From IMG/VR virus record IMGVR_UViG_2519899780_000002: a stretch of 49,454 bases of DNA, one strand, 5' to 3'. A program made the position numbers. Numbering within the stretch: the first letter of the stretch is position 1; each line of letters begins with the position of its first letter. Origin of the DNA: a virus (lineage: Duplodnaviria; Heunggongvirae; Uroviricota; Caudoviricetes). Positions 36,001 through 39,000 of this stretch are shown here, one piece after another.

Positions 36001-39000
36001 GATGTGGCGGACATGACGGAGGATGACGTAATGCTGATGACAGTATCAGAAGGGATCGCAGGAGGAGTCCGGTATGGCTGAACCGGTAGGCGATCTGGTC
36101 GTTGATTTGAGTCTGGATGCGGCCAGATTTGACGAGCAGATGGCCAGAGTCAGGCGTCATTTTTCCGGTACGGAAAGTGATGCGAAAAAAACAGCGGCAG
36201 TCGTTGAACAGTCGCTGAGCCGACAGGCGCTGGCTGCACAGAAAGCGGGGATTTCCGTCGGGCAGTATAAAGCCGCCATGCGTATGCTGCCTGCACAGTT
36301 CACCGACGTGGCCACGCAGCTTGCAGGCGGGCAAAGTCCGTGGCTGATCCTGCTGCAACAGGGTGGTCAGGTTAAGGACTCCTTCGGCGGGATGATCCCC
36401 ATGTTCAGGGGGCTTGCCGGTGCGATCACCCTGCCGATGGTGGGGGCCACCTCGCTGGCGGTGGCGACCGGTGCGCTGGCGTATGCCTGGTATCAGGGCA
36501 ACTCAACCCTGTCCGATTTCAACAAAACGCTGGTCCTTTCCGGCAATCAGGCGGGACTGACGGCAGATCGTATGCTGGTCCTGTCCAGAGCCGGGCAGGC
36601 GGCAGGGCTGACGTTTAACCAGACCAGCGAGTCACTCAGCGCACTGGTTAAGGCGGGGGTAAGCGGTGAGGCTCAGATTGCGTCCATCAGCCAGAGTGTG
36701 GCGCGTTTCTCCTCTGCATCCGGCGTGGAGGTGGACAAGGTCGCTGAAGCCTTCGGGAAGCTGACCACAGACCCGACGTCGGGGCTGACGGCGATGGCAC
36801 GCCAGTTTCATAACGTGACGGCGGAGCAGATTGCGTATGTTGCTCAGTTGCAGCGTTCCGGCGATGAAGCCGGGGCATTGCAGGCGGCGAACGAGGCCGC
36901 AACGAAAGGGTTTGATGACCAGACCCGCCGCCTGAAAGAGAACATGGGCACGCTGGAGACCTGGGCAGACAGGACTGCGCGGGCATTCAAATCCATGTGG
37001 GATGCGGTGCTGGATATTGGTCGTCCTGATACCGCGCAGGAGATGCTGATTAAGGCAGAGGCTGCGTTTAAGAAAGCAGACGACATCTGGAATCTGCGCA
37101 AGGATGATTATTTTGTTAACGATGAAGCGCGGGCGCGTTACTGGGATGATCGTGAAAAGGCCCGTCTTGCGCTTGAAGCCGCCCGAAAGAAGGCTGAGCA
37201 GCAGACTCAACAGGACAAAAATGCGCAGCAGCAGAGCGATACCGAAGCGTCACGGCTGAAATATACCGAAGAGGCGCAGAAGGCTTACGAACGGCTGCAG
37301 ACGCCACTGGAGAAATATACCGCCCGTCAGGAAGAACTGAACAAGGCACTGAAAGACGGGAAAATCCTGCAGGCGGATTACAACACGCTGATGGCGGCGG
37401 CGAAAAAGGATTATGAAGCGACGCTGAAAAAGCCGAAACAGTCCGGCGTGAAGGTGTCTGCGGGCGATCGTCAGGAAGACAGTGCTCATGCTGCCCTGCT
37501 GACGCTTCAGGCAGAACTCCGGACGCTGGAGAAGCATGCCGGAGCAAATGAGAAAATCAGCCAGCAGCGCCGGGATTTGTGGAAGGCGGAGAGTCAGTTC
37601 GCGGTACTGGAGGAGGCGGCGCAACGTCGCCAGCTGTCTGCACAGGAGAAATCCCTGCTGGCGCATAAAGATGAGACGCTGGAGTACAAACGCCAGCTGG
37701 CTGCACTTGGCGACAAGGTTACGTATCAGGAGCGCCTGAACGCGCTGGCGCAGCAGGCGGATAAATTCGCACAGCAGCAACGGGCAAAACGGGCCGCCAT
37801 TGATGCGAAAAGCCGGGGGCTGACTGACCGGCAGGCAGAACGGGAAGCCACGGAACAGCGCCTGAAGGAACAGTATGGCGATAATCCGCTGGCGCTGAAT
37901 AACGTCATGTCAGAGCAGAAAAAGACCTGGGCGGCTGAAGACCAGCTTCGCGGGAACTGGATGGCAGGCCTGAAGTCCGGCTGGAGTGAGTGGGAAGAGA
38001 GCGCCACGGACAGTATGTCGCAGGTAAAAAGTGCAGCCACGCAGACCTTTGATGGTATTGCACAGAATATGGCGGCGATGCTGACCGGCAGTGAGCAGAA
38101 CTGGCGCAGCTTCACCCGTTCCGTGCTGTCCATGATGACAGAAATTCTGCTTAAGCAGGCAATGGTGGGGATTGTCGGGAGTATCGGCAGCGCCATTGGC
38201 GGGGCTGTTGGTGGCGGCGCATCCGCGTCAGGCGGTACAGCCATTCAGGCCGCTGCGGCGAAATTCCATTTTGCAACCGGAGGATTTACGGGAACCGGCG
38301 GCAAATATGAGCCAGCGGGGATTGTTCACCGTGGTGAGTTTGTCTTCACGAAGGAGGCAACCAGCCGGATTGGCGTGGGGAATCTTTACCGGCTGATGCG
38401 CGGCTATGCCACCGGCGGTTATGTCGGTACACCGGGCAGCATGGCAGACAGCCGGTCGCAGGCGTCCGGGACGTTTGAGCAGAATAACCATGTGGTGATT
38501 AACAACGACGGCACGAACGGGCAGATAGGTCCGGCTGCTCTGAAGGCGGTGTATGACATGGCCCGCAAGGGTGCCCGCGATGAAATTCAGACACAGATGC
38601 GTGATGGTGGCCTAGTTCTCCGGAGGTGGACGATGAAGACCTTCCGCTGGAAAGTGAAACCCGGTATGGATGTGGCTTCGGTCCCTTCTGTAAGAAAGGT
38701 GCGCTTTGGTGATGGCTATTCTCAGCGAGCGCCTGCCGGGCTGAATGCCAACCTGAAAACGTACAGCGTGACGCTTTCTGTCCCCCGTGAGGAGGCCACG
38801 GTACTGGAGTCGTTTCTGGAAGAGCACGGGGGCTGGAAATCCTTTCTGTGGACGCCGCCTTATGAGTGGCGGCAGATAAAGGTGACCTGCGCAAAATGGT
38901 CGTCGCGGGTCAGTATGCTGCGTGTTGAGTTCAGCGCAGAGTTTGAACAGGTGGTGAACTGATGCAGGATATCCGGCAGGAAACACTGAATGAATGCACC

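What the first reader, a model, noticed from the sequence alone, without database searches (positions are those of the whole stretch)
38600..38640. Tape measure gene H lacks a stop codon and reads in-frame into gpM
Seen: translation from the H start (36074) continues ...QMRDGGLVLRRWT-MKTFRW... through the complete M sequence to 38962. In-frame M ATG is at 38633 with its own GGAGGTGGA RBS. Stops lie only in the +1 frame (TAG at 38613, TGA at 38634). Inference: relative to a lambda-like arrangement where H ends at a TGA overlapping the M ATG, a single-base indel near CCTAGTTCTCC would produce this. It is either a real frameshift yielding an H-M fusion (possible tail-assembly defect) or a sequencing error.
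Basis: partly seen in the sequence, partly recalled or inferred. Interest (0 to 1): 0.45.

Follow-up and report, generated by a model that had tools for sequence, protein, structure and literature searches.

The report
One-base insertion fuses tail genes H-M
A single extra A near the end of a lambda-like prophage's tape-measure gene makes it read straight into the next tail gene, but the extra base is almost certainly an error in one 2012 genome assembly and not real biology.

Summary
ORF 36074-38962 (+) encodes 962 aa: lambda-type gpH residues 1-847, six novel residues (VLRRWT), then a complete gpM. The cause is one inserted A at 38614 (CCT[A]GTT), 19 nt upstream of the M ATG.

The window is prophage I of E. 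coli O104:H4. Its length from the integrase boundary to the end of the tail-fibre assembly gene (49,090 bp) equals the published value for strain 2009EL-2071.

The insertion was found in no other DNA sequence searched: 5,426 E. coli genomes, 50,697 phage records, GTDB representative genomes, IMG/VR and JGI metagenomes. It is absent from FDAARGOS_401, a later assembly with the 2009EL-2071-specific prophage set.

The sister 2012 assembly (2009EL-2050) has its own private +1 T only 14 nt upstream. That base is likewise absent from the later assembly that matches it.

The window also carries a private cluster of seven homopolymer-lengthening insertions near cos, and substitution patches identical to paralogous prophages. 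Both are marks of imperfect finishing across repeats.

Best explanation: assembly or base-calling artefact (about 0.85). If the insertion were real, it would be an ordinary prophage lesion. Published tail-tip structures suggest it would disable gpH, while gpM would still be made from its own ribosome-binding site. Interest is low.

The parts
36074..38962 (+). 962-aa fused H-M open reading frame as it stands in the window
   Evidence: ORF list; TMP_2, Tape_meas_lam_C and Phage_min_tail domains in one ORF
36074..38614 (+). gpH-derived part, codons 1-847 (codon 847 is CTA instead of CTG, still Leu)
   Evidence: the aligned stretch is identical to lambda gpH residues 777-847; the orthologous gene is an 853-aa tape measure protein
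38614..38614 (+). The inserted A (CCT[A]GTT). It is a lone A between T and G, not in a homopolymer, and is the sole cause of the fusion
38615..38632 (+). Six out-of-frame codons (VLRRWT) replacing the native gpH C-terminus FSGGGR
38622..38626 (+). GGAGG Shine-Dalgarno sequence for M, intact, 6 nt upstream of the ATG
   Evidence: read directly; identical in all aligned copies
38633..38962 (+). Complete M gene (109 aa plus stop), 100% identical in protein to lambda gpM; it can still be initiated independently
   Evidence: 8iyk_M, residues 1-109
38634..38636 (+). TGA, the native H stop codon (ATGA overlap with the M start), put out of frame by the insertion
   Evidence: lambda H 10542..13103, M 13100..13429
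38578..38578 (+). T-to-C substitution (synonymous, CGT to CGC) 36 nt upstream of the insertion, absent from every O104:H4 copy examined (the same C occurs in unrelated strain Z1323CEC0001)
25181..25349 (.). Cluster of 7 private 1-nt insertions, all lengthening homopolymers, plus 3 T-to-G changes near cos; independent evidence of local consensus errors in the same record

Best explanation
The H-M 'fusion' is an artefact of one genome assembly. The window is prophage I of E. coli O104:H4 strain 2009EL-2071. That genome was finished in 2012 from 454 and Illumina consensus 'shreds' merged with phrap, plus hundreds of finishing reads to resolve repeats. The genome holds several near-identical lambdoid tail modules, so the consensus in this region was locally imperfect. 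One spurious A was left at 38614. It shifts the last six codons of the tape measure gene H into the frame of the overlapping gene M and removes the ATGA stop/start overlap. The real prophage almost certainly has the ordinary lambda arrangement: an 853-aa gpH ending at a TGA that overlaps the M ATG, and a separate 109-aa gpM. Shown: the insertion exists in the window, is private to it, and is absent from later assemblies. Inferred: the identity of the source strain, and the technical cause.
For: (1) The base is private. No 100% match over 38300-38950 exists in 5,426 complete E. coli genomes (9,817 matching places) or in 50,697 phage records; all best hits span 650 nt against 651. The exact junction string is absent from GTDB representative genomes, IMG/VR and JGI metagenomes. 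The 962-aa protein is a single UniParc entry in a 26,172-member cluster; every full-length member among the 15 listed is 853 aa.
(2) Source. Window 1..49090 (integrase CDS boundary to the end of the tail-fibre assembly gene) is 49,090 bp. That equals Table 6 of PMC3486847 for prophage I of 2009EL-2071, against 49,084 bp in 2009EL-2050.
(3) Resequencing. FDAARGOS_401 (stool, country Georgia, 5.31 Mb) carries prophage J at potB, which the paper says is unique to 2009EL-2071. Its prophage I has an intact 853-aa H (WP_000840228.1), no inserted A, and none of the window's substitutions that could be scored.
(4) The sister 2012 assembly 2009EL-2050 (NC_018650.1) has a different private +1 T 14 nt upstream, also outside a homopolymer and also fusing H to M; RefSeq flags it 'frameshifted'. 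It also has a +1 G in the terminase gene. Both are absent from FDAARGOS_348, which has prophage I but no prophage J and so matches the 2009EL-2050 type.
(5) The same window has other private anomalies. Seven homopolymer-lengthening insertions and three T-to-G changes lie within 170 bp near cos, where the best match in any genome is 97.8%. Substitution patches are identical to paralogous prophages of the same genome. The first 25,180 bases show no difference from the FDAARGOS_348 copy.
(6) Methods. The 2012 assemblies needed 400-800 finishing reactions each to resolve repeats, and the authors treated read-versus-assembly conflicts as 'errors in the final assembly'.
(7) At least 10 other assemblies of this prophage have the normal junction.
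Against: No reads were available, so the error is not shown directly. The inserted A is not in a homopolymer, so it is not a typical 454 error and differs in kind from the cos cluster. The 2012 genomes were described as finished quality, with 300-1,200x Illumina polishing. The equations window = 2009EL-2071 and FDAARGOS_401 = the same strain are inferences from length, prophage content and metadata. The accession I recall for 2009EL-2071 (NC_018661.1) is not in the collection. FDAARGOS_401 has three indel errors of its own in this prophage, so it is not a perfect reference. Laboratory stocks of one strain can differ.
Confidence: 0.85

Rival explanations
1. A real spontaneous +1 insertion arose in prophage I of the culture sequenced in 2012. 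H would then be made as an H(1-847)-VLRRWT-M fusion, while free gpM is still translated from its own Shine-Dalgarno sequence and ATG. Published tail-tip structures place gpH 818-849 as a trimeric coiled coil in the lumen, resting on the gpI plug, whereas gpM residues K2 and W6 contact the external side-fibre collar. A six-residue linker therefore could not satisfy both positions. The fusion would probably block or poison tail-tip assembly, giving an H-defective prophage that near-identical H genes of paralogous prophages in the same cell might complement.
For: The base is in the deposited sequence and the resulting protein is in UniParc. The site is not a homopolymer, so it is an unusual place for a 454 error. 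Prophage genes do decay, and the authors report strain-specific frameshift pseudogenes. The M start signals are intact. Structural constraints come from PMC10721106 and PMC12617516. Paralogous H genes exist in the same genome.
Against: The base is absent from the later assembly with the same strain-specific prophage set and from every other sequence searched. It would require two independent non-homopolymer +1 insertions 14 nt apart in two sister strains, each then absent from the matching later assembly. The surrounding record shows other consensus errors.
Confidence: 0.12
2. The in-frame H-M junction is a functional or selected arrangement: a tape measure protein fused to the distal tail protein, or a recoding site that yields both H and H-M products.
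For: Both 2012 sister assemblies carry +1 events that create the same H-M reading frame. A few other junction-spanning proteins exist in the large protein collection, for example P0016 with ...GGLFLRRWTMKTF....
Against: All those proteins are singletons from single contigs, against up to 3,088 members for the largest normal gpM cluster, and several hop frames repeatedly like noisy assemblies. In a spread sample of phage records, every record covering both gene ends needs two frames. No slippery heptamer lies at the junction, whereas the canonical G/T heptamer GGGAAAG sits at 35641-35647. The structural topology argues against a functional fusion.
Confidence: 0.02

Closest known systems
Bacteriophage lambda H/M gene junction (tape measure gpH, 853 aa; distal tail protein gpM, 109 aa; ATGA stop-start overlap)
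   Same: Gene order Z-U-V-G-T-H-M-L-K-I-J. About 97% DNA identity across the tail module. H residues 777-847 and all of M are identical in protein to lambda. The same Shine-Dalgarno sequence and ATG serve M.
   Different: One extra A at 38614 removes the in-frame TGA, so the ORF runs on for 962 aa. The rest of the prophage (early, lysis and head genes) is not lambda-like.
RefSeq 'frameshifted' tape measure pseudogene O3M_RS10915 in E. coli O104:H4 2009EL-2050 (NC_018650.1)
   Same: Same prophage, same sequencing project, and the same kind of private non-homopolymer +1 insertion in the last 35 nt of H, producing the same H-M reading frame.
   Different: A different base (T) at a different position, 14 nt upstream. 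NCBI's pipeline already annotates it as a frameshift.
Lambda G/GT programmed -1 ribosomal frameshift
   Same: A frame change that joins two adjacent tail-operon ORFs. The window keeps this canonical site (GGGAAAG at 35641-35647).
   Different: G/GT depends on a conserved slippery heptamer and is present in all relatives. The H-M junction has no slippery sequence, and the frame change is a DNA insertion unique to one record.

Membership tests
Lambda-type tail tape measure protein (gpH) | TMP_2 (PF06791) and Tape_meas_lam_C (PF09718) domains | tested here: met
   E = 9e-70 and 2.5e-21, both above the gathering score
Lambda-type tail tape measure protein (gpH) | Native C-terminus (...GGLFSGGGR) ending at a TGA that overlaps the M ATG; length 853 aa | tested here: not met
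   identity ends at residue 847; VLRRWT follows and there is no stop; 962 aa
Distal tail protein gpM (Phage_min_tail, PF05939) | Full-length domain, with its own start codon and ribosome-binding site | tested here: met
   855-961, E = 5e-38; 100% identical to 8iyk_M residues 1-109; GGAGG-N6-ATG
Programmed ribosomal frameshift / recoding site | Slippery sequence at the shift site, conserved among relatives | tested here: not met
   no heptamer of X XXY YYZ type at 38600-38635; the frame change is a DNA insertion absent from all relatives
Sequencing or assembly artefact | Variant confined to a single assembly | tested here: met
Sequencing or assembly artefact | Variant absent when the same strain is sequenced again | tested here: met
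   The strain identities are inferred from the 49,090-bp length match and from prophage J at potB, not from a strain label.
Sequencing or assembly artefact | Other private, error-like differences in the same record or project | tested here: met
   cos cluster; paralog-derived patches; sister assembly
Sequencing or assembly artefact | Raw reads contradict the consensus base | not testable with these tools
   No read data are accessible

The most novel reading that the evidence does not exclude
The insertion is real, and the two Georgian O104:H4 sister strains each independently acquired a +1 insertion in the last 35 nt of H, creating the same tape-measure/distal-tail-protein fusion. That would be convergent selection for an H-M fusion, or for silencing this prophage's tail, with both changes later lost or absent in the stocks that were resequenced.
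Probability: 0.02. Interest if true: 0.45.

Novelty: not a real feature. Interest (0 to 1): 0.07.

Why it matters
It matters mainly as quality control. A 962-aa 'tape measure-minor tail fusion protein' sits in public protein databases (UniParc UPI00030D29F4) and could be mistaken for a natural domain fusion. It most probably reflects one spurious base in a repeat-rich prophage of a 2012 finished genome. Even if the base were real, it would be an ordinary inactivating lesion in one prophage copy of one isolate. The only modest interest would be as a natural test of whether the extreme C-terminus of gpH tolerates an appended domain.

Tried and rejected
- Exact-string scans for the junction in GTDB representative genomes (two patterns), IMG/VR and JGI metagenomes found nothing.
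- An exact-protein contig look-up found no encoding contig on record.
- The accession I recalled for 2009EL-2071 (NC_018661.1) is not in the E. coli collection, so the source could not be confirmed by direct retrieval. I used the published prophage length instead.
- My first attempt to find prophage J in FDAARGOS_401 went in the wrong direction and returned the recA/srl region. The second attempt succeeded.
- Searches of the paper's held supplementary files for this coordinate, or for an indel in this tape measure gene, found nothing relevant. The hits concerned a different 870-aa tape measure gene.
- I looked for a single donor for the portal-gene substitution patch at 28219-28756. None exists (best 98.8%), so that patch remains only partly explained.
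- I considered a homopolymer (454-type) error as the cause. The A is not in a run, so the mechanism is more likely a finishing-read or consensus-merging error.
- I considered programmed frameshifting and rejected it: there is no slippery site and no conservation.
- I considered an engineered restriction site. The new CTAG does not create a 6-bp site (CCTAGT), so I rejected this by inspection.

Full report
**Observation.** The window holds a single ORF, 36074..38962 (+), of 962 aa. Its last part reads ...QMRDGGLVLRRWT-MKTFRW...EQVVN.
- the in-frame M ATG at 38633-38635;
- GGAGG at 38622-38626, six bases upstream of that ATG;
- TAG at 38613-38615 and TGA at 38634-38636, both in the other frame.

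Pfam places TMP_2 (54-256), Tape_meas_lam_C (627-701) and Phage_min_tail (855-961) in this one polypeptide. Against solved structures, the junction-spanning peptide is 100% identical to lambda gpH residues 777-847, stopping exactly at 847. It is also 100% identical to lambda gpM residues 1-109.

**The cause.** Alignment with lambda, an unrelated E. coli prophage, two later assemblies of the same prophage and a paralogous prophage shows exactly one extra base: the A at 38614 (CCT[A]GTT against CCTGTT).
- Codon 847 changes from CTG to CTA and still encodes Leu.
- Codons 848-853 change from FSGGGR to VLRRWT.
- The native TGA, which overlaps the M ATG as ATGA in lambda (H 10542..13103, M 13100..13429), falls out of frame.
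- The A is not part of a homopolymer.

**What the window is.** Only the tail module (FII to J) resembles lambda, at about 97% identity. The whole window aligns end to end, at 99.915%, with a prophage of E. coli O104:H4 strains that runs from the integrase gene to a DinI-like gene next to yecD/aspS. The differences number 34 substitutions and 8 one-base indel positions. All eight are insertions in the window, and all 42 differences lie beyond position 25180.

Ahmed et al. 2012 (PMC3486847) call this element prophage I, present only in the two 2009 Georgian strains. Their Table 6 gives 49,084 bp in 2009EL-2050 and 49,090 bp in 2009EL-2071. The 2009EL-2050 coordinates run from the integrase CDS boundary to the end of the tail-fibre assembly gene in NC_018650.1. 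The window begins at that same integrase boundary, and the tail-fibre assembly gene ends at window 49090. This exact length match makes it very likely that the window is prophage I of 2009EL-2071 from the 2012 finished assembly. It remains an inference, because the accession I recall for that genome is not in the collection.

**Is the inserted base seen anywhere else?** No.
- Over 38300-38950, the best matches among 5,426 complete E. coli genomes (9,817 places) and 50,697 phage records reach 99.7-99.8% and all span 650 nt against 651.
- The exact junction string is absent from GTDB representative genomes, IMG/VR and JGI metagenomes.
- The 962-aa protein exists once in UniParc (UPI00030D29F4), inside a 90%-identity cluster of 26,172 members. 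Every full-length member among the 15 listed is 853 aa.
- At least ten other assemblies of this same prophage have the normal junction.

**Resequencing evidence.** FDAARGOS_401 (stool, country Georgia, 5.31 Mb) has a lambdoid prophage inserted immediately after potB. This is prophage J, which the paper reports only in 2009EL-2071. FDAARGOS_348 has prophage I but an uninterrupted potABCD, matching 2009EL-2050.

In FDAARGOS_401, prophage I differs from the FDAARGOS_348 copy by only three homopolymer deletions. Its H gene is an intact 853 aa (WP_000840228.1). It has no A at the junction and none of the window's substitutions that could be scored.

The older 2009EL-2050 assembly (NC_018650.1) has its own private +1 T at the position equivalent to window 38600. 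That is 14 nt upstream of the window's A, also outside a homopolymer, and also puts H in frame with M. It has a further +1 G in the large terminase gene. RefSeq flags both genes as 'frameshifted', and both insertions are absent from FDAARGOS_348.

Two different non-homopolymer insertions 14 nt apart, in two sister genomes from one finishing project, each missing from the matching later assembly, are far better explained by a shared technical weakness at this spot than by two independent mutations.

**Other signs of local consensus problems in the window.**
- Positions 25181-25349, around cos, hold seven private one-base insertions that all lengthen homopolymers, plus three T-to-G changes that extend G runs. 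No E. coli genome matches this stretch better than 97.8%.
- Several substitution patches equal the bases of paralogous prophages of the same genome. Positions 37306 and 40815-41085 match the prophage at 0.37 Mb, and 32546/32590 match prophage J.
- The portal patch at 28219-28756 has no single donor.

The 2012 genomes were built by merging shredded 454 and Illumina consensus sequences with phrap, and needed 400-800 finishing reactions each to resolve repeats. The authors treated read-versus-assembly conflicts as errors in the final assembly.

**What a real fusion would do.** This section is inference from published structures. In lambda virions, gpH residues 818-849 form a trimeric coiled coil in the tail-tip lumen, resting on the gpI tripod (PMC10721106; PMC12617516). 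The gpM residues K2 and W6 contact the external side-fibre collar, so the gpM N-terminus faces outward. Six linker residues could not connect a luminal gpH helix to a gpM subunit seated in its ring. Three extra 12-kDa domains would also have to sit at the gpH-gpI contact. A real fusion would therefore most probably give a defective tape measure protein. Free gpM would still be made from its intact ribosome-binding site and ATG, and near-identical H genes in paralogous prophages might complement the defect.

**Is an in-frame H-M junction a natural arrangement?** There is no sign of one. In a spread sample of tblastn hits among phage records, every record that covers both the H end and M does so in two pieces, meaning two frames. 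In the 5.8-billion-protein collection, the few junction-spanning proteins are singletons from single contigs, against up to 3,088 members for the largest normal 109-aa gpM cluster. One of them (P0016) reflects a different +1 event one codon downstream, and others hop frames repeatedly. The junction has no slippery heptamer, whereas the canonical G/T frameshift heptamer GGGAAAG is in place at 35641-35647.

**Verdict.** The ORF is really in the sequence as given. It is best explained as a one-base assembly or base-calling artefact in a repeat-rich prophage of a 2012 genome (confidence about 0.85). A real but ordinary inactivating insertion is the main rival (about 0.12). A functional or selected fusion is very unlikely (about 0.02). 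Read-level data or a prophage-specific amplicon from strain 2009EL-2071 would settle it. Interest is low.

Noticed in passing
window 25181-25349: Near cos, seven private 1-nt insertions that all lengthen homopolymers, plus three T-to-G changes that extend G runs. No complete E. coli genome matches this stretch better than 97.8%. This looks like a low-quality consensus patch.
   Followed up: yes
window 28219-28756, 29895-29903, 32546-32590, 37306, 40815-41085, 44927-45241, 48191: Substitution patches relative to the orthologous prophage. Some are identical to paralogous prophages of the same genome (prophage J, and the prophage at 0.37 Mb of FDAARGOS_348). The portal patch has no single donor (best 98.8%). 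This is either a chimeric consensus across repeats or gene conversion.
   Followed up: partly
L006 (NC_018650.1, 2009EL-2050) positions 13895 and 2856: The sister 2012 assembly has its own +1 T in the last 35 nt of H, which also creates an H-M reading frame, and a +1 G in the large terminase gene. RefSeq annotates both genes as frameshifted, and both insertions are absent from FDAARGOS_348.
   Followed up: yes
L007 (NZ_CP023531.1, FDAARGOS_401) positions 4718, 8387, 14073: Three private 1-nt homopolymer deletions in the portal, FI and M genes of the same prophage, annotated as frameshifted. These are probably long-read consensus errors, so this later assembly is not error-free either.
   Followed up: partly
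window 15276-17668 (- strand): A reverse-strand two-gene insert between the Q antiterminator and the prophage tRNA genes. It encodes a 404-aa protein with no Pfam or PADLOC hit and a 391-aa protein with an NA37 nucleoid-associated domain (E = 1e-23). It may be a moron or defence cargo of unknown function.
   Followed up: partly
phage records PQ789808.1, BK061477.1, NC_074662.1, KU708004.1: In some Burkholderia and Pseudomonas siphophages, a single tblastn piece crosses the tape-measure/M boundary. This suggests the two genes lie in the same frame, separated only by a stop codon.
   Followed up: no
proteins P0016, P0048, P0050, P0060: Singleton junction-spanning H-end/M proteins in public data. 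P0016 reads ...GGLFLRRWTMKTF..., a different +1 event one codon downstream of the window's. The others change frame several times, as noisy assemblies do.
   Followed up: partly
window 35641-35647: The canonical lambda G/T -1 frameshift heptamer GGGAAAG is present at the 3' end of G (G ORF 35243..35665, T ORF 35647..36081). The rest of the tail operon is therefore conventional.
   Followed up: partly
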